A DNA stretch of 64,000 bases from the IMG/VR virus record IMGVR_UViG_3300021964_000016; one strand, written 5' to 3'. This document shows, piece after piece, positions 55,999 through 64,000 of this stretch; position 1 is the stretch's first letter; every line of letters begins with the position of its first letter. The translations under genes and the position numbers were made by a program. Under the pieces are notes generated by a model. The model did not search any database. It had not been told where the DNA came from and saw nothing but the letters and a program-made list of their open reading frames with translations. The stretch comes from a virus.

Positions 55999-57552
55999 TT
56001 ATGATGTAAAAACCTTTACCCCATATTTTCGTTCAAACTGAGCAGCGTGTTCAACAGTATTAACCATCGGCATGCGTCGAATATTCAAAGAAGTGTTTAA
56101 CAACATAGGCACACCAGTTCTTTCATAATAGCATTCAATTATTTTCCGAAAAACCGATTTCGAATCTTTTGGCACTAATTGTACGCGACCAGTACCATCG
56201 ACATGAGTAACAGAAGAATACTGGTGTTTTGCCTTAGCAGCATATTGCATCCATCGATTCATTGGTCCTTCGAAATAATCTGCTGCATGTTCTTCTAAAA
56301 TAGCAGGAGCGAAAGGTCGATATTTCTGCCTACGTTTTACCATGTTAACTGTATCTTTAACATCGAATCTAACATCTGCAATAAGTGATCGGTTTCCATA
56401 TGCACGATAACTAAACTCTGCTGGACCGTTTGCGACTCCGCAATATCGCTCTTTGAGGAGATGATCAACAACCATTTCTGGGTCTAAGTCTCCTTCGATA
56501 CAGTGACCAAGATAAGGGTGTTCCCAATTAATTCTATCCTTGCCAGTATCTCTCATATAAGAAAAAGCAGCTGCACCGAGACTAGCACCTCCATCTCCAG
56601 GATTCAAATCTACCCACATATCGTCAAATAGTTTGCTCACCTCATTATTTGTGACAATATTCTGTGCAACTCCGCCGGAATAGCAAAGTTTGCTTCCGTA
56701 CTTTCTTGCCTTTTTCATAAACTCTAAAATAACGAGGGTTGTACATGCTTGAAGAGATGCAGCTGCATCCTCTACAGATTTACATTCTTTCATAAGCATC
56801 TGTACGATTTTTCGCAAGTACATTAACTTTAAGTCATAGAAATGTTTCCAGTTCACGTAACTTCCTTCTTCCCTTTTTTGTATTGCTTCTTCAATCAACC
56901 ATTCGGGAATAGAACTAAACATCTCATAAGTTTTTTCAGTATGAGTAGGTTCGCCATAACTCGACAATCCCATGATCACATATTCATCTTCGTTTGCGGT
57001 CAAACCGAGTCCGCAACCTTCTGTAAAGGCAGCATAAAGATATCCGATAGATTTAGGGAATGTTATCTCTTCAATAATATTAAAATTATGATCAAGAATT
57101 GCACCAGAACGATGCTCCCCAATACCATCAATTGTTACAATAACGCAATCTTCTTTATCGAAAGATTTTGGTCTTGTGGCAAAAGCAGCATATGCGTGCG
57201 AAATATGGTGCCCAGTAGGTTTTGCGTTTATTTTTTGAGTATACATCGAAGGATGTATGTTCTGTATAGGGCAATCCAATTTGAAAATATCAGGAAACTT
57301 TTTCCGAGTTAATGCAACTTCACCTCCACGAAGTTCTTCTCTCGCCTCCCAATCGTCATTCATTGTAACGATTAGGTTTTCTCCTTTATTCGGGTGATAC
57401 AATAAGTCCCACAAACCAGAGGGGATTCTAGAATCGTGCTTCACTTGAGTGAATCTTTCTGTCTGACTCGCAAAGACAATATTGCCTTGGTCATCAATCA
57501 ACGTCATGCCAGCATCGTGGAGTTGTGCTCCACTAATACCCAAATATTTCAT
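55999..57552 (-). CDS. O-carbamoyltransferase, NodU/CmcH/TobZ family
   Basis: HDA, ERF...KHD, HH.SHA, DG.GE, EY.IMGLSSYG, SGGVAQN, PGDGG.SLGAA, RA.GNRS, RPFAP, HVDGT.R.Q, LLNTSLN. Confidence 0.93.
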   Translation of the reverse strand: MKYLGISGAQLHDAGMTLIDDQGNIVFASQTERFTQVKHDSRIPSGLWDLLYHPNKGENLIVTMNDDWEAREELRGGEVALTRKKFPDIFKLDCPIQNIHPSMYTQKINAKPTGHHISHAYAAFATRPKSFDKEDCVIVTIDGIGEHRSGAILDHNFNIIEEITFPKSIGYLYAAFTEGCGLGLTANEDEYVIMGLSSYGEPTHTEKTYEMFSSIPEWLIEEAIQKREEGSYVNWKHFYDLKLMYLRKIVQMLMKECKSVEDAAASLQACTTLVILEFMKKARKYGSKLCYSGGVAQNIVTNNEVSKLFDDMWVDLNPGDGGASLGAAAFSYMRDTGKDRINWEHPYLGHCIEGDLDPEMVVDHLLKERYCGVANGPAEFSYRAYGNRSLIADVRFDVKDTVNMVKRRQKYRPFAPAILEEHAADYFEGPMNRWMQYAAKAKHQYSSVTHVDGTGRVQLVPKDSKSVFRKIIECYYERTGVPMLLNTSLNIRRMPMVNTVEHAAQFERKYGVKVFTS

Positions 57553-59766: not shown

Positions 59767-60198
59767 TTATATAGGATTATCAACATTACTACTTAGGTGT
59801 TTTCTAGAGATACGACAATTTATAATTCCATTGTAGTATTCGTCATTTAAAAGGACTTCTCTATCGAACTGCTCTTTTGCTTCGTAGTACGAGCAGTCAC
59901 CTTTGGTTTTACACAACCTGATTATTTCTCGTTTGAAAGCATCGGCACCTTTCTGTTCTAATAAAAGTTTTACCGCTTCAGAACTACCGAAATAACCTTT
60001 CCAGTCTGATTCTACTCGCATATGTTTCCTACGCTTTCGACTTTTAGTCACTGGCAGTGTTTTCTTTTTGTGAAAAAATTTTTTGCCGACATACTTCATA
60101 CCTGTTTCTATTTCAGTTATGACGTACACAAACCCTGTCCATTCTTGGAGCGATTCGTATTCTGGGTCAAAAACTTTTCCTTCGTAGTGCCAAGTCAT
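59767..60198 (-). CDS. GIY-YIG endonuclease, EndoII/DenA-like (start MTW)
   Basis: GFVY.IT....G.KYVGKK, ESDWK.Y.GSS, F.REI, E...QF...VL....YYN. Confidence 0.85.
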   Translation of the reverse strand: MTWHYEGKVFDPEYESLQEWTGFVYVITEIETGMKYVGKKFFHKKKTLPVTKSRKRRKHMRVESDWKGYFGSSEAVKLLLEQKGADAFKREIIRLCKTKGDCSYYEAKEQFDREVLLNDEYYNGIINCRISRKHLSSNVDNPI

Positions 60199-60320
60199 GC
60201 TTCTACTGGAGACGCGCACATAGGACAATACGCTGGTTCAGCATCACAATTTTCATCTAAAATTATTTCACAGTGAGATTCGCAGACGTCGCAAATAACG
60301 TCAAACACATACTCTTCCAT
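60195..60320 (-). CDS. Small zinc-ribbon/rubredoxin-like protein (41 aa), not in ORF track
   Basis: MEEYVFDVICDVCESHCEIILDENCDAEPAYCPMCASPVEA: two CxxC motifs, ATGA overlap with nuclease. Confidence 0.75.
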   Translation of the reverse strand: MEEYVFDVICDVCESHCEIILDENCDAEPAYCPMCASPVEA

Positions 60321-60322
60321 TA

Positions 60323-60754
60323 TTAATCTCTCGCTATCTTTCCTGTTTCGTACAGATATTCTCTATTAGTTATATGCTCTTGAGCAATGTCGTCTTTTGA
60401 TTGCCCGAAATACCTAACCCCGAGTTTGTTTTCAATCATAATTTCGTTCACGGGGCGGTATGCGTCTTTTGAAGCATCGTACACGATAAACTCTCCCAAG
60501 ATTCGACCATACTTTCCCTTTCCGTCTTTCCTAGTTCGAAGAACCGCTTCTTCACCCAAAGAGTTTACCAGATAATCTTTTGCGAGCAACCCACACTTTT
60601 TCTCTTCGAGGTTTCTCGTTCTAGACTCTGGAGTATCGATGCCATAGAGTCTAACCCTTTGTTTCTTTAACCAAACGCCAAACCCGAGATCGATATCAAC
60701 ATCAACCGTGTCTCCGTCGACAACCTTTATTACTTTGCAATTATATTCGAACAT
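60323..60754 (-). CDS. Thermonuclease (SNase-like)
   Basis: KVVDGDTVDV.IDLGF, RVRLYGIDTPESRT, GKYGRILG. Confidence 0.9.
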   Translation of the reverse strand: MFEYNCKVIKVVDGDTVDVDIDLGFGVWLKKQRVRLYGIDTPESRTRNLEEKKCGLLAKDYLVNSLGEEAVLRTRKDGKGKYGRILGEFIVYDASKDAYRPVNEIMIENKLGVRYFGQSKDDIAQEHITNREYLYETGKIARD

Positions 60755-60993
60755 TACAGCACCTTTTTAAGATGATAACCCACAGGTTGTAAAAGTTTGA
60801 ATGTATTTTTACAACCTTCTGTGTCAATAAACACAAAGTGGGTTTCGGATATTTTTTTAATTTTTTTAACCTTAAAGGTTTGTGGGTTTCCCTTGGATAC
60901 TTTGGTTCCGTCTGGTTGTTCTACTGTTTCTCCTGGGAAAAATATAGTCAACTCCCACTCGTCATGTAACCATTTTTTTATAGACTGCTTCAT
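60754..60993 (-). CDS. Hypothetical protein (79 aa)
   Basis: In-operon ORF coupled to neighbours. Confidence 0.6.
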   Translation of the reverse strand: MKQSIKKWLHDEWELTIFFPGETVEQPDGTKVSKGNPQTFKVKKIKKISETHFVFIDTEGCKNTFKLLQPVGYHLKKVL

Positions 60994-60996
60994 ATC

Positions 60997-61068
60997 TTAC
61001 CGTACACTAAAATACATGGTCACTTCGAACCCAGCACGGATAACGATTGCTTCTGGTTTGTTCCACAT
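60997..61068 (-). CDS. pqqA: Coenzyme PQQ precursor peptide PqqA (23 aa, MWNKPEAIVIRAGFEVTMYFSVR), not in ORF track
   Basis: Matches PqqA consensus MWxKP.....R.GFEVTMY...R including the E-x-x-x-Y pair; purine-rich SD (AAGGGG/AAGGT) upstream; fills intergenic gap exactly. Confidence 0.9.
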   Translation of the reverse strand: MWNKPEAIVIRAGFEVTMYFSVR

Positions 61069-61079
61069 ACCTTTCCCCT

Positions 61080-61589
61080 TTATGCGATAATACTTATTGA
61101 TGTTCTTTCGTCAGAAAGAACATCGACCTTGTGAGAAACTCCTTTTGGCATAAAAAATATATGCCCAGGTTCTACTATTTGTTCTCTTATTTCCCCTCGG
61201 TGCCCTTCTGCCCCCGAAATCTCAAACCAAGTCCATTTTGTGACACCAAGTATGTTAAATGCCCAAACCTCATAATTGTCAACGTGCCAACCAAGACTAG
61301 AGTTTGCCCCTTCGTGAAGTCCAATAAACATAGAAATGTTTATACATTTATGGTACTCCATCATCTCCTTAAAAACTTTTGGGAACGTCTTTTTATCTTT
61401 ATCGCACCAACCATAATGCCTATAGACTGTACTGGAGTCTACTCGACTTTTCATTTCTGAGTGCCATTTACCAGGAGCTTCTGACATGATATAGTCAGTA
61501 TCGGGAAGAGCATCAAACCATTTTTTGGGCATAGTCTGGTAAGAAGTCCCCCATTGTGCGTTTGGTTTATCATAATATTTAGGTTCCAA
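61080..61589 (-). CDS. JmjC/cupin-like 2OG-Fe(II) oxygenase (169 aa)
   Basis: LGWHVDNYEV...N..G.T.W, PG...F.PKG..H.V...R.SISI. Confidence 0.8.
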   Translation of the reverse strand: MEPKYYDKPNAQWGTSYQTMPKKWFDALPDTDYIMSEAPGKWHSEMKSRVDSSTVYRHYGWCDKDKKTFPKVFKEMMEYHKCINISMFIGLHEGANSSLGWHVDNYEVWAFNILGVTKWTWFEISGAEGHRGEIREQIVEPGHIFFMPKGVSHKVDVLSDERTSISIIA

Positions 61590-61590
61590 A

Positions 61591-62568
61591 TTATGCCGCT
61601 CCCCAAACCTCTTTCCAGTCTCCAGTTAATGCCCCGCGAGCATAATCTGTAGCACGGTTCTCAAAAAAGTTTGTGTGTGTTGGCGCGTTAATCATTTCTT
61701 CGACCCAAAGTAAAGGGTTCTTCTTCACTTTAAAGATACCCTTCATGCCCAAAGAGATAAGGCGACGATCTGCGATGTACCGAATATATGCCTTAACTTC
61801 TTCTTGAGTAAGTCCTTCCATTGGACCCATGGCAAACGCCAGATCGATAAACTTGTCCTCGAGTTCTACCATCTTTTCTGCAATAGAGTAGATCGTTGAT
61901 TTCAACTGATCGTTCCAAATCTCGATATTCTCTTCTATGTAGGTTCGGAATAGTTTGATCATAGACTCGGCGTGCATAGTCTCGTCGACGATAGACCAAG
62001 TTACAATCTGTCCCATGCCCTTCATCTTACCATGACGCGGAAAGTTGAGTAGCATGATGAAAGAACTGAACAGTTGCATACCTTCGGTGAAGGCAGAGAA
62101 CGCGGCGATATTAGCAGCAACAGATTCTTTGGTGCCGTTATTTGCGGAAAGGTTTAGAAAATACTCGTGCTTCTCTCGCATTGCCTCGTACTCGAGGAAC
62201 TCGTTGTATGTAGACTCAGGCATACCCAAGGTCTCTATCAAATGCGAATAAGCAGCAACGTGGAGTGCTTCTCTCGCGGCGAATCCCATAAGCATCATAC
62301 GAACTTCTGGTTGTGGGAAATAAGGAAGATAGTTCGAAACATATCCACCCGCAACATCGATATCACCCTGAGTAAAAAATCGAAAAATATTGGTCAAAAA
62401 TGCTCGCTCTTCAATAGTGAGTTTTCTTTGCCAATCCTTTACATCTTCTGCCATTGGAACTTCCGTGTGTAACCAATGAGACTGCTCATGTTTCAACCAA
62501 GCATCATATGCCCATGGATAGTTGAAAGGTTTGAAGTGGTCCCTGTTGTCCGTAATTGATAGTTGCAT
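61591..62568 (-). CDS. nrdB: Ribonucleotide reductase class Ia beta subunit
   Basis: KPF.YPWA, FFTQGD, REALH...Y, TEGMQLFSSF, VDETMH, NFFE. Confidence 0.97.
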   Translation of the reverse strand: MQLSITDNRDHFKPFNYPWAYDAWLKHEQSHWLHTEVPMAEDVKDWQRKLTIEERAFLTNIFRFFTQGDIDVAGGYVSNYLPYFPQPEVRMMLMGFAAREALHVAAYSHLIETLGMPESTYNEFLEYEAMREKHEYFLNLSANNGTKESVAANIAAFSAFTEGMQLFSSFIMLLNFPRHGKMKGMGQIVTWSIVDETMHAESMIKLFRTYIEENIEIWNDQLKSTIYSIAEKMVELEDKFIDLAFAMGPMEGLTQEEVKAYIRYIADRRLISLGMKGIFKVKKNPLLWVEEMINAPTHTNFFENRATDYARGALTGDWKEVWGAA

Positions 62569-62571
62569 GCA

Positions 62572-63126
62572 TTATCCTTTGTTTTCTGTTTTGTTGAACC
62601 AAGTTACTAGTACGATTCTATGACCATCATAAACTTTGCTCACTCCATGAGTCAAGTTTGGACCATAAACTAAACTTTCACCATCATCAACTTTCACCAC
62701 ATCCATTATAATTTGCTGACCATAGGGGGGAGCATCTTGTTCGCGAGAATGCCGCGCCACCTGATTTCCCATTGGTCTGCTCTTTAATTTATACTCTGCT
62801 CTAACTAAAGATTCTCCACCAACCAACTCCTTTGTTTTTAGTAAAGTAACAATTGTCAAATCCGAGTTGTTGTCTTCGTGCATTCTTGTAAAAGAATCTT
62901 TTTCATATTTTAAAAAATATGCCCCCTTATCTCCTGGCATCTTTGAATACTTTTTCAAAGTATTATAGAAACCGTATTGTAGTGGGGTTGGAACATCTCT
63001 TCTTTCAACATCAAACAAGTTGTAGTTTTGATGCCAAAAAACAGGAGAGAGACTTTCGTATATTTCTAGTGCTTCTTTTATTTCATCACCGGAAAGAATT
63101 CTTTCCTTAATATAACCACTCACCAA
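62572..63126 (-). CDS. 2OG-Fe(II) oxygenase (184 aa)
   Basis: Y...SF...HED, LT.V.LL, GG, HGV..V..G.R.VLV.WF. Confidence 0.8.
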   Translation of the reverse strand: MVSGYIKERILSGDEIKEALEIYESLSPVFWHQNYNLFDVERRDVPTPLQYGFYNTLKKYSKMPGDKGAYFLKYEKDSFTRMHEDNNSDLTIVTLLKTKELVGGESLVRAEYKLKSRPMGNQVARHSREQDAPPYGQQIIMDVVKVDDGESLVYGPNLTHGVSKVYDGHRIVLVTWFNKTENKG

Positions 63127-64000
63127 TTATCCCTCGCAAGCGATACACTCTTCATTATTAACGATAGCAACCATATCAATTTCTTTGATTGCTTCTCTTT
63201 CGATCTTCTTAGAAACGCGATCTGCCTTTCCAAGTTTTTCAGAGCGACAATAGTACAAAGTCTTCAACCCTTTCTTCCACGCCAAGAAATGGACAGCATG
63301 CAAGTAAACGATATTCGCGTCTGGTCTAAAGAACAGATTCAAAGACTGCGCTTGATCGATAAACTGTTGCCGATCAGCAGCGTGCTCAATAACCCAACGT
63401 TGATCAATTTCCATAGAGGTCTTGAATACGTCTTTTTCTTCTTGGGTCAGAAACCGAAGATGCTGAGCAGAACCATCGTTAGCAATAATGCTTGACCAAA
63501 TTTCATCATAGTCTTGCTTTGTTTCGCCCGACTGAATTTTTGCTTTTATGAGTTGATCCAAATATCGGTTTTTATTTAAATGTGAACCAGACAATGTATC
63601 CTGACGGTATGCGTTTGCTCGCCAAGGTTCTATAGAAGGAGAAGTATTGCCCATAATGATAGAGGAACTAGCATTAGGCGCAACAGCCATAACATGAGAA
63701 AATCTCTTTCCAGTTCCTTCTGCGTCTGGTGCTTCTCCTCGTTCTTTACCGATCTCGAGGTTTGCTTCATCGAGTTTCCTCCGGATGAGAGAAAATATCC
63801 TGTTGTTAGTAACCTTTGCCATGGCACAATCCCATGGTAGGTTTTTCTTTTGTAGATAAGCATGAAACCCAAGGGCACCGATACCGATCGAACGCTCTCG
63901 CATTGCGGAGAACTTAGCACGAGCAACTGTATCTGGCGCGTTGTCAATAAAAAATTGCAACACGTTGTCCAACATCTCTGCCATGTCTTTCAAAAACAAT
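63127..64000 (-). CDS. nrdA: Ribonucleotide reductase class Ia alpha subunit, 3' part (runs off window)
   Basis: ERSIGIG.LG, AVAPNASSS, SPSIEP, RQ.FIDQAQSLNLF, GLKTLYY, C-terminal CIACEG. Confidence 0.97.
   Translation of the reverse strand, partial: LFLKDMAEMLDNVLQFFIDNAPDTVARAKFSAMRERSIGIGALGFHAYLQKKNLPWDCAMAKVTNNRIFSLIRRKLDEANLEIGKERGEAPDAEGTGKRFSHVMAVAPNASSSIIMGNTSPSIEPWRANAYRQDTLSGSHLNKNRYLDQLIKAKIQSGETKQDYDEIWSSIIANDGSAQHLRFLTQEEKDVFKTSMEIDQRWVIEHAADRQQFIDQAQSLNLFFRPDANIVYLHAVHFLAWKKGLKTLYYCRSEKLGKADRVSKKIEREAIKEIDMVAIVNNEECIACEG

What the first reader, a model, noticed from the sequence alone, without database searches (positions are those of the whole stretch)
60997..61068. Hidden phage-encoded pqqA: a viral copy of the PQQ cofactor precursor peptide
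A 72-nt ORF below the ORF-track cutoff encodes MWNKPEAIVIRAGFEVTMYFSVR. It has its own SD and sits in the nrdAB operon (seen). It matches the proteobacterial PqqA pattern, including the Glu and Tyr (E-V-T-M-Y) that PqqE cross-links to build PQQ (established). No pqqB-E are present in this window. PqqA is consumed stoichiometrically, so a phage copy could be a minimal auxiliary metabolic gene that feeds host PqqBCDE and keeps PQQ-dependent periplasmic alcohol/methanol/sugar dehydrogenases running during infection. Alternatively it is a decoy that titrates PqqD/E (inference).
Basis: partly seen in the sequence, partly recalled or inferred. Interest (0 to 1): 0.9.

Follow-up and report, generated by a model that had tools for sequence, protein, structure and literature searches.

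The report
Phage-borne PQQ precursor gene pqqA
A marine T4-like phage carries a real 23-codon copy of pqqA, the small peptide that bacteria use up to make the redox cofactor PQQ, but none of the enzymes that convert it; viral copies of this gene were first reported in 2020, so this is a new example of a known kind, possibly from a new host group.

Summary
The minus-strand ORF at 61068..60997 (P0001, 23 aa) has a Shine-Dalgarno site and sits between co-directional genes. It passes the curated cut-offs of both PqqA models: Pfam PF08042 at 24.4 bits against 21.1, and TIGR02107 at 31.4 against 20. The cross-linked Glu15 and Tyr19 and the Trp/Pro/Arg leader residues are all present.

It is not a chance ORF. 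It is the only hit in the window's six frames (E 5e-15), against E 0.5 or worse in 80 related loci.

No pqqB-E or PQQ-dependent dehydrogenase was found in the window.

The same orphan gene occurs in 61 IMG/VR contigs, none with pqqB-E nearby, and unannotated in all cultured OM43/LD28 methylophages that the GenBank phage search returned. Here it belongs to an accessory cassette (pqqA, an 79-aa ORF, SNase) beside a SegE-type endonuclease gene. Syntenic relatives lack the cassette.

The peptide is closest to PqqA of marine Cellvibrionales (Halieaceae, Porticoccus), not of methylotrophs. This hints at a non-methylotroph host.

The most likely role is to supply precursor to the host PqqBCDE during infection. 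That is inferred, not shown.

Viral pqqA was already published (Lake Baikal viromes, PMC7678222), and this scan has found it many times on other DNA. I score interest as low to moderate.

The parts
60997..61068 (-). pqqA: 23 codons plus TAA. Glu15 and Tyr19 are the residues that PqqE cross-links. Trp2, Lys4, Pro5 and Arg11 are the conserved leader residues.
   Evidence: Translation. PF08042 scores 24.4 bits against a cut-off of 21.1. TIGR02107 scores 31.4 bits against a cut-off of 20, covering model positions 1-21 of 21. It is the only hit of a custom PqqA HMM in the window.
61070..61080 (-). Shine-Dalgarno-like purine run just upstream of the pqqA start codon.
   Evidence: Read from the sequence. 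All 60 viral pqqA copies with a readable start also carry a GGAG- or AGGA-type site 5-9 nt upstream.
61099..61124 (-). Perfect 11-bp stem with a 4-nt loop, inside the last codons of the JmjC-like gene and about 30 nt before pqqA. It is not followed by a T run. Role unknown; it could be an RNA processing or stabilising element.
   Evidence: Fold. The same stem with a different loop is present in relative L013, although the rest of that gene has diverged. The 161-nt region as a whole is not unusually stable (z -1.3).
60323..60993 (-). Rest of the accessory cassette: an 79-aa ORF of no known family (60993..60754) and a staphylococcal-nuclease-like gene (60754..60323).
   Evidence: Pfam: no family for the 79-aa ORF, SNase at E 1.9e-9. 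The block is 100% identical in nucleotides to L013, L023 and L063 through pqqA and the 79-aa ORF. It is missing from syntenic relatives.
59767..60228 (-). SegE-type GIY-YIG endonuclease gene that bounds the cassette on the downstream side.
   Evidence: PF19835 at E 6e-34. Present in 47 of 80 nrdB-related loci.
61080..61589 (-). JmjC/cupin-like oxygenase gene immediately upstream (context gene).
   Evidence: PF08007 scores 25.3 bits against a cut-off of 22. It is only 60% identical in the otherwise 96-100% identical relatives. It is present in relatives that lack pqqA.
61591..63999 (-). nrdB (62568..61591), a 2OG-Fe(II) oxygenase-like gene (63126..62572) and the C-terminal part of nrdA (63999..63127): the upstream genes of the same co-directional array.
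   Evidence: Pfam Ribonuc_red_sm at 2.2e-75, Ribonuc_red_lgC at 3.3e-50, and 2OG-FeII_Oxy_3 at 25.2 bits, just under its cut-off of 27.

Best explanation
This is a genuine, translated, stand-alone pqqA gene carried by a lytic T4-like marine myophage.

**Proposed mechanism.**
1. The gene is transcribed with the early/middle nucleotide-metabolism genes (nrdA, nrdB) and translated from its own ribosome-binding site.
2. The 23-residue peptide is picked up by the host's PqqD chaperone and PqqE radical-SAM enzyme, which link Glu15 to Tyr19.
3. The host's PqqB, PqqC and a peptidase finish the conversion to PQQ.

**Why it would pay.** One peptide is destroyed for each PQQ made. A short peptide and its message should run out first once the phage shuts down host transcription. 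A phage copy of the substrate alone would then be the smallest gene that keeps PQQ-dependent periplasmic alcohol or sugar dehydrogenases, and so energy supply, running during infection.

**What is shown.** The gene is real, it belongs to the family, it lacks partner enzymes in the phage, and it recurs in phages under selection.

**What is inferred.** Expression timing, acceptance of the peptide by host enzymes, the benefit to the phage, and the host. The host is probably a PQQ-producing marine gammaproteobacterium of the Cellvibrionales.
For: **Family membership.** Both curated HMM cut-offs are passed, over the full model length.

**Gene-like anatomy.** It has a Shine-Dalgarno site and is packed tightly among co-directional genes.

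**Recurrence in viruses.**
- A back-translated 8-residue core pattern finds 61 IMG/VR loci.
- Every one of them is an in-frame ORF of about 23 codons.
- Each has the Trp-x-Lys-Pro...Arg leader, which was not part of the pattern, and each has a Shine-Dalgarno site.

**Selection.** Outside the pattern, pN/pS is 0.42 with pS 0.66, and Trp, Pro and Arg are invariant.

**Orphan status.** 0 of 61 viral loci, and not the window, have pqqB-E within the fetched flanks. All 23 bacterial loci have pqqB next door.

**Link to PQQ-dependent hosts.** Of 12 GenBank 'phage' records hit by tblastn, 9 are cultured phages of OM43/LD28 methylotrophs, which live by a PQQ-dependent methanol dehydrogenase. All of these copies keep Glu-x3-Tyr.

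**Candidate host has the pathway.**
- The nearest cellular PqqA belong to Porticoccus (17 of 22 residues) and to Luminiphilus/HTCC2080 (16 of 22). HTCC2080 was the best of 401 sampled Gammaproteobacteria.
- HTCC2080 has pqqABCDE.
- It also has two PQQ alcohol dehydrogenases above the family cut-off.

**Timing.** The T4 late-promoter octamer occurs 11 times, but only between 3 and 47.5 kb of the window. None is near pqqA. This fits early or middle expression.

**Dosage.** Some sampled bacterial genomes carry 6-8 pqqA copies, which suggests that pqqA dosage matters.

**Prior report.** An independent report gave a viral PqqA the same reading (PMC7678222).
Against: - There are no functional data of any kind.
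- The host is unknown. Only 64 kb of the phage genome could be read, so pqqB-E or a dehydrogenase elsewhere in the genome is not excluded.
- The gene is absent from the 80 nearest nrdB relatives, including 7 fully syntenic loci. It is therefore dispensable for this phage lineage.
- The leader differs from cellular PqqA at two nearly invariant positions. Position 7 is Ala where 41 of 43 cellular peptides have an aromatic residue. Position 9 is Val where 42 of 43 have an acidic residue. This could weaken PqqD binding.
- The closest relatives are 100% identical in nucleotides across pqqA. They therefore give no information on selection within this lineage.
Confidence: 0.6

Rival explanations
1. 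**Decoy or inhibitor.** The phage peptide binds host PqqD/PqqE but is processed poorly. It would then titrate the pathway and lower PQQ synthesis, for example to redirect radical-SAM and SAM resources or to alter periplasmic redox.
For: - The leader departs from cellular PqqA at positions 7 and 9.
- Viral copies in general have lost the acidic residue at position 9: 11 of 27 viral peptides keep it against 42 of 43 cellular ones, Fisher p 7e-8.
Against: - Glu15, Tyr19 and the whole eight-residue core are kept in every viral copy seen, including the copies found by tblastn without a core pattern.
- The gene is enriched in phages of methylotrophs, whose only energy source needs PQQ. Shutting PQQ down would starve such a phage.
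- The viral and cellular samples are not phylogenetically independent.
Confidence: 0.1
2. **Neutral passenger.** This would be a recently captured, very small host gene that rides in a hyper-variable island beside a homing-endonuclease gene, without benefit to the phage.
For: - It is part of an indel cassette next to a SegE-type gene and is missing from syntenic relatives.
- The nearest relatives are identical in sequence, so they show no selection signal.
Against: - An intact ORF with a Shine-Dalgarno site is present in many unrelated phage lineages, with pN/pS 0.42 outside the searched motif.
- No flanking host DNA came with it. The only DNA match of 20 kb of window to 121 Halieaceae genomes is the 68-nt gene itself, at 75% identity. 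The capture is therefore old.
Confidence: 0.15
3. **Substrate of a phage enzyme.** The peptide would be modified by the neighbouring JmjC-like or 2OG oxygenases into a product other than PQQ.
For: The JmjC-like gene lies 11 nt upstream, and a 2OG oxygenase-like gene lies between nrdA and nrdB. The same adjacency is seen in L013, L023 and L063.
Against: - The JmjC-like and 2OG genes are present in relatives that lack pqqA.
- No neighbour family is shared across pqqA-bearing phage lineages. The one large cluster is a lineage-specific low-complexity protein.
- The peptide is an ordinary PqqA by HMM.
Confidence: 0.05
4. **Chance ORF.** The ORF would be a chance open frame, or the real gene would be the 97-aa plus-strand ORF (60797..61090) that overlaps it.
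For: Short ORFs are common: the window has 889 ORFs of 20 aa or more.
Against: - The HMM scores are above the curated cut-offs.
- It is the single hit in the window at E 5e-15.
- The plus-strand ORF starts with TTG, lies antisense to two conserved minus-strand genes in a region where almost every gene is on the minus strand, and was given no family.
Confidence: 0.01

Closest known systems
Virus-encoded PqqA of Lake Baikal methylotroph viruses (Coutinho et al. 2020, Microbiome 8:163, PMC7678222)
   Same: It is a stand-alone PQQ precursor peptide gene on a viral contig, read as an auxiliary metabolic gene that supports PQQ-dependent dehydrogenases.
   Different: - The Baikal virus is a freshwater virus predicted to infect Methylophilaceae, and its population also encoded a methanol dehydrogenase.
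- This window is a marine-type T4-like myophage with no dehydrogenase in the 64 kb read.
- The peptide here resembles Cellvibrionales PqqA rather than methylotroph PqqA.
Unannotated pqqA of cultured OM43/LD28 methylophages (Melnitz, MEP401/402, MEP301, Venkman, P19250A)
   Same: - An orphan ORF of 23-24 codons with the same core.
- Ala at leader position 7.
- A Shine-Dalgarno site and no pqqB-E nearby.
- Melnitz is also a T4-like (Kyanoviridae) myophage and has a 70% identical SNase-like gene about 3.7 kb from its pqqA.
   Different: - Only 12-13 of 22 residues are shared with the window peptide.
- The C-terminal tails differ.
- The genome positions differ.
- Their hosts are known methylotrophs.
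Cellular PqqA of the pqqABCDE operon in marine Cellvibrionales (Luminiphilus sp. HTCC2080, Halieaceae and Porticoccus MAGs)
   Same: - The same length.
- An identical 12-residue C-terminal half, including the rare Phe-Ser-Val-Arg tail. In a scan of one genome per species, this tail was found almost only in this group.
- 16-17 of 22 residues are identical, with 75% nucleotide identity over 68 nt.
   Different: - The cellular gene is always followed by pqqB (23 of 23 loci). The phage gene stands alone.
- The phage leader has Ala7 and Val9 where the cellular peptides have Phe/Tyr and Asp.

Membership tests
PqqA (Pfam PF08042 / NCBIfam TIGR02107) | Score at or above the curated family cut-off. | tested here: met
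   PF08042 scores 24.4 bits against 21.1. TIGR02107, an equivalog model, scores 31.4 bits against 20 and covers model positions 1-21 of 21.
PqqA (Pfam PF08042 / NCBIfam TIGR02107) | A peptide of about 20-40 residues with Glu and Tyr spaced Glu-x3-Tyr, the two residues that become PQQ. | tested here: met
   The peptide has 23 residues, with Glu15 and Tyr19. These are the same positions as in the HTCC2080 operon copy.
PqqA (Pfam PF08042 / NCBIfam TIGR02107) | A conserved leader (Trp-x-Lys-Pro, then aromatic-x-acidic-aliphatic-Arg) that PqqD recognises. | tested here: inconclusive
   Trp2, Lys4, Pro5 and Arg11 are present. The aromatic residue (41 of 43 cellular peptides) is Ala here, and the acidic residue (42 of 43) is Val. 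Which leader residues PqqD needs could not be established from the paper read.
PqqA (Pfam PF08042 / NCBIfam TIGR02107) | Genomic association with pqqB, pqqC, pqqD and pqqE. | tested here: not met
   None was found in the window. This is not disqualifying, because stand-alone extra copies also exist in bacteria: up to 8 matches per genome at dispersed places. The rest of the phage genome could not be searched.
PqqA (Pfam PF08042 / NCBIfam TIGR02107) | Conversion to PQQ by PqqE/PqqD, PqqB, PqqC and a peptidase. | not testable with these tools
   This needs biochemistry or genetics. The peptide is below the chain length that the complex predictor asks for, so no job was sent.
Viral auxiliary metabolic gene | Host-derived metabolic gene on a bona fide virus, recurrent in viruses and under purifying selection. 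| tested here: met
   - T4-like baseplate, gp32, late coactivator and PhoH genes are present.
- 61 viral loci carry the gene without pqqB-E.
- pN/pS is 0.42 outside the searched motif.

The most novel reading that the evidence does not exclude
The phage infects a non-methylotrophic, PQQ-producing marine gammaproteobacterium of the Cellvibrionales (OM60/NOR5 Halieaceae, or Porticoccaceae). Precursor-only pqqA carriage would then be a general phage strategy wherever hosts make PQQ, not a speciality of methylotroph phages. In addition, the altered viral leader (loss of the aromatic and acidic residues that are near-invariant in cells) would be an adaptation that changes how the peptide competes for PqqD/PqqE, not drift.
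Probability: 0.3. Interest if true: 0.5.

Novelty: new member of a known kind. Interest (0 to 1): 0.3.

Why it matters
PqqA is the one part of PQQ synthesis that is consumed. A phage that carries only this 72-nt gene shows how small an auxiliary metabolic gene can be.

It also shows what routine annotation misses. Gene callers skip ORFs this short, and the gene is unannotated in every cultured methylophage record examined here.

If the peptide feeds host enzymes, phages help sustain PQQ-dependent oxidation of methanol, other alcohols and sugars in infected marine bacteria.

This window would extend the phenomenon in two ways: to a T4-like myophage, and possibly to hosts outside the methylotrophs. 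It also shows the gene behaving as a mobile cassette beside a homing-endonuclease gene.

The basic discovery is already published, so the gain here is incremental.

Tried and rejected
- **Near-identical phage records.** A megablast of 6 kb of the window against GenBank phages found no match. The closest isolate by gp32 is 'Phage C48C1' at 60% identity, with no host given.
- **Whole-genome search for pqqB-E.** Not possible, because no genome is held for this window.
- **Tools that refused the 23-aa peptide as too short.** The search for related loci and the search for homologous proteins. I used DNA patterns and tblastn instead.
- **Complex prediction of the peptide with a host PqqD.** Not sent, because the tool asks for chains of 30 residues or more.
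- **Host assignment.**
  - The window has no tRNA.
  - A DNA search of 121 Halieaceae genomes returned only the pqqA gene itself.
  - G+C (40.8% in the window against 52.5% in an HTCC2080 locus) is uninformative for T4-like phages.
- **A conserved partner gene next to viral pqqA.** Clustering of the flanking ORFs found only lineage-specific synteny. The largest cluster is a low-complexity podophage protein.
- **Rfam.** Nothing meaningful around the gene.
- **Promoter and terminator scan.** It gave only weak sigma-70-like matches, no more than in shuffled sequence, and no terminator next to pqqA.
- **dN/dS from the nearest relatives.** Impossible, because their pqqA is identical in nucleotides.
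- **Two 'Acinetobacter phage MD-2021a' hits.** Rejected as viral evidence. The one record examined, CAKLQF020000010.1, is bacterial chromosome with fur, ppk and pqqB-E.

Full report
**1. The observation**

- A purine-rich ribosome-binding site lies directly upstream, at 61070-61080.
- The start codon is 11 nt after the stop of a 169-aa JmjC-like gene.
- The stop codon is 3 nt before the start of an 79-aa ORF.

Almost every long ORF in the window is on the minus strand and tightly packed. The small ORF fills what would otherwise be a gap in a co-directional array.

**2. What it is**

The peptide passes both curated PqqA models. Pfam PF08042 gives 24.4 bits against a gathering score of 21.1. The NCBIfam equivalog TIGR02107 gives 31.4 bits against 20, over the full model.

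- Glu15 and Tyr19, the residues that become PQQ, are in place.
- The leader residues Trp2, Lys4, Pro5 and Arg11 are also in place.

I built an HMM from collected PqqA peptides and ran it over every stop-to-stop frame. It gives one hit in the window (E 5e-15). It gives nothing better than E 0.5 in about 850 kb of related phage DNA. Chance is excluded.

**3. The carrier**

The window is part of a T4-like myophage.

- It has baseplate genes (gp5, gp6, gp8, gp9/10, gp25, gp53), gp32, a late-transcription coactivator, PhoH, Hsp20, lysozyme, nrdA/nrdB, a SegE-type endonuclease and a glycan-tailoring cluster.
- There is no close GenBank relative. The best gp32 match is 60%, to 'Phage C48C1', classified in Kyanoviridae with no host given.
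- No PQQ enzyme or PQQ-dependent dehydrogenase family appears among 62 scanned ORFs. tblastn with PqqB, C, D and E of strain HTCC2080 finds nothing.
- The rest of the genome could not be searched.
- The T4 late-promoter octamer occurs 11 times (3.2 expected), all between 3 and 47.5 kb. pqqA therefore lies in the early/middle region with the nrd genes.

**4. Recurrence in viruses**

A back-translated pattern for the eight core residues hit 61 IMG/VR loci.

- In all of them the match lies in an ORF of about 23 codons with the Trp-x-Lys-Pro...Arg leader, which the pattern did not ask for. Where the start is readable, a Shine-Dalgarno site is present.
- There are 21 peptide variants and 32 nucleotide haplotypes.
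- Outside the pattern, pS is 0.66 and pN 0.28, a ratio of 0.42. Trp, Pro and Arg are invariant.
- None of the 61 loci has pqqB-E in its flanks. All 23 bacterial loci used as a control have pqqB next door.

In GenBank phages, tblastn hit 12 records.

- Nine are cultured phages of OM43 or LD28 methylotrophs.
- One is a spring-water podophage.
- Two are labelled 'Acinetobacter phage MD-2021a'. The one examined is bacterial chromosome with pqqB-E, annotated alongside fur and ppk.
- The methylophage copies all keep Glu-x3-Tyr and are unannotated.

**5. An accessory cassette in this lineage**

Three IMG/VR contigs (L013, L023, L063) are near-identical to the window.

- Their flanking proteins are 92-100% identical, and pqqA plus the 79-aa ORF are 100% identical in nucleotides.
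- The JmjC-like gene just upstream is only 60% identical, the 2OG gene 81% and the carbamoyltransferase 67%.

I fetched the 80 best loci through nrdB, at 81-90% identity. None holds a PqqA-like ORF. Seven of them show the full synteny nrdA, 2OG, nrdB, JmjC, then SegE, DUF6433 and mostly PhoH, but lack pqqA and the 79-aa ORF, and mostly SNase too.

So pqqA, the 79-aa ORF and SNase form an insertion beside a homing-endonuclease-type gene. More distant T4-like contigs (L027, L028, L029, L036, L061) carry a similar pqqA in other places.

**6. Which cells it resembles**

I scanned one genome per species for the core plus the Ser-[Val/Ile/Met]-Arg tail.

- The scan returned 23 loci, nearly all Luminiphilus or Halieaceae (OM60/NOR5), plus Porticoccus and Cellvibrionaceae.
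- The window peptide shares 17 of 22 residues with a Porticoccus MAG and 16 of 22 with HTCC2080. It shares 12-13 with methylophage copies and with a small XoxF-bearing genome.
- Among 401 sampled Gammaproteobacteria, HTCC2080 was the best match, at 31.2 bits. The next best scored 21.9.
- HTCC2080 has pqqABCDE and two PQQ alcohol dehydrogenases above the family cut-off.
- A DNA search of 121 genomes of that family with 20 kb of window matched only the pqqA gene itself, at 75% over 68 nt.

This points to a Cellvibrionales host, but only weakly, because it rests on one 23-residue peptide.

**7. A difference from cellular copies**

| Leader position | Cellular peptides (43 distinct) | Viral peptides (27 distinct) | Fisher p |
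|---|---|---|---|
| 7, aromatic | 41 | 15 | 9e-5 |
| 9, acidic | 42 | 11 | 7e-8 |

The window peptide has Ala at position 7 and Val at position 9.

The samples are related by descent, and the hosts of most viral copies are unknown. This is therefore a lead, not a result.

The cellular sample includes one peptide each from the unpublished genomes G040 and G297. No sequence from them is given here, and no claim depends on them. The other unpublished genomes listed (G142, G309) contributed only rows in that table.

**8. Mechanism**

The best-supported reading is precursor supply. The phage provides the consumed substrate, and the longer-lived host enzymes PqqD/E, PqqB and PqqC turn it into PQQ.

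- This fits the intact core, the selection, the absence of enzymes on the phage, the enrichment in phages of PQQ-dependent methylotrophs, and the multi-copy state of pqqA in some bacteria.
- It is not shown. A decoy role, a neutral passenger and a substrate for the neighbouring phage oxygenases are weighed under the rival explanations.

**9. Novelty**

A viral PqqA was described in 2020 in Lake Baikal viruses predicted to infect Methylophilaceae, and was interpreted the same way (PMC7678222). A 2026 reservoir study lists viral pqqA, pqqD and pqqE (PMC13188868). The paper describing phage Melnitz mentions PQQ only as a medium supplement.

This scan has noted phage pqqA many times on other DNA: 107 notes in at least 71 genomes. 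None of those notes links it to Halieaceae.

This is therefore a new member of a known kind. What is new here is a T4-like carrier, a cassette structure beside a Seg-type gene, and a Cellvibrionales-like sequence.

Noticed in passing
window 61099-61124 (-): A perfect 11-bp hairpin with a 4-nt loop sits in the last codons of the JmjC-like gene, about 30 nt before pqqA, with no T run after it. Relative L013 has the same stem with a different loop, although the rest of that gene has diverged strongly.
   Followed up: partly
window 55999-57552, 61080-61589 and 62572-63126, compared with L013 and L023: There is mosaic divergence between near-identical phages. The carbamoyltransferase (67%), the JmjC-like gene (60%) and the 2OG oxygenase-like gene (81%) are far more diverged than their neighbours (92-100%). 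This suggests allele replacement by recombination. One boundary lies 10-20 nt upstream of the pqqA start.
   Followed up: partly
L200 (CAKLQF020000010.1 103210-113275): This record is filed as 'Acinetobacter phage MD-2021a' in the phage collection. Here it is ordinary bacterial chromosome (fur, ppk, pqqB-E, a dipeptidase). Its pqqA hit is not viral.
   Followed up: yes
L001 3995-4069 (Melnitz); L002 621-692 (MEP402); L201, L202 and L203 at 1501-1572 (Venkman, MEP301, P19250A): pqqA is unannotated in all these cultured methylophage records. In Melnitz, a 'hypothetical protein' on the opposite strand (locus tag ending _152) is annotated over it instead.
   Followed up: partly
viral loci L003-L063 compared with bacterial loci L064-L118: Viral PqqA leaders often lack the acidic residue two positions before the conserved Arg, which is frequently Lys instead. 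About half have Ala in place of the aromatic residue. Both positions are nearly invariant in the cellular copies sampled.
   Followed up: partly
window 3135-47493 (-): The T4 late-promoter octamer occurs 11 times, all on the minus strand and all in the structural half (3.2 expected by chance). None lies in the 48-64 kb part that holds the glycan-tailoring cluster, phoH, nrdAB and pqqA.
   Followed up: no
L001 7759-8031 (Melnitz) and window 60323-60754: The SNase-like gene of the cassette is 70% identical to a 'nuclease-like protein' of the OM43 myophage Melnitz, which lies about 3.7 kb downstream of Melnitz's own pqqA.
   Followed up: no
genomes G377, G227 and G005: Some sampled gammaproteobacterial genomes hold many dispersed pqqA matches: 8, 6 and 2. 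The small 1.5-Mb genome G005 has two copies about 3.4 kb apart, the second followed by pqqB and pqqC.
   Followed up: partly
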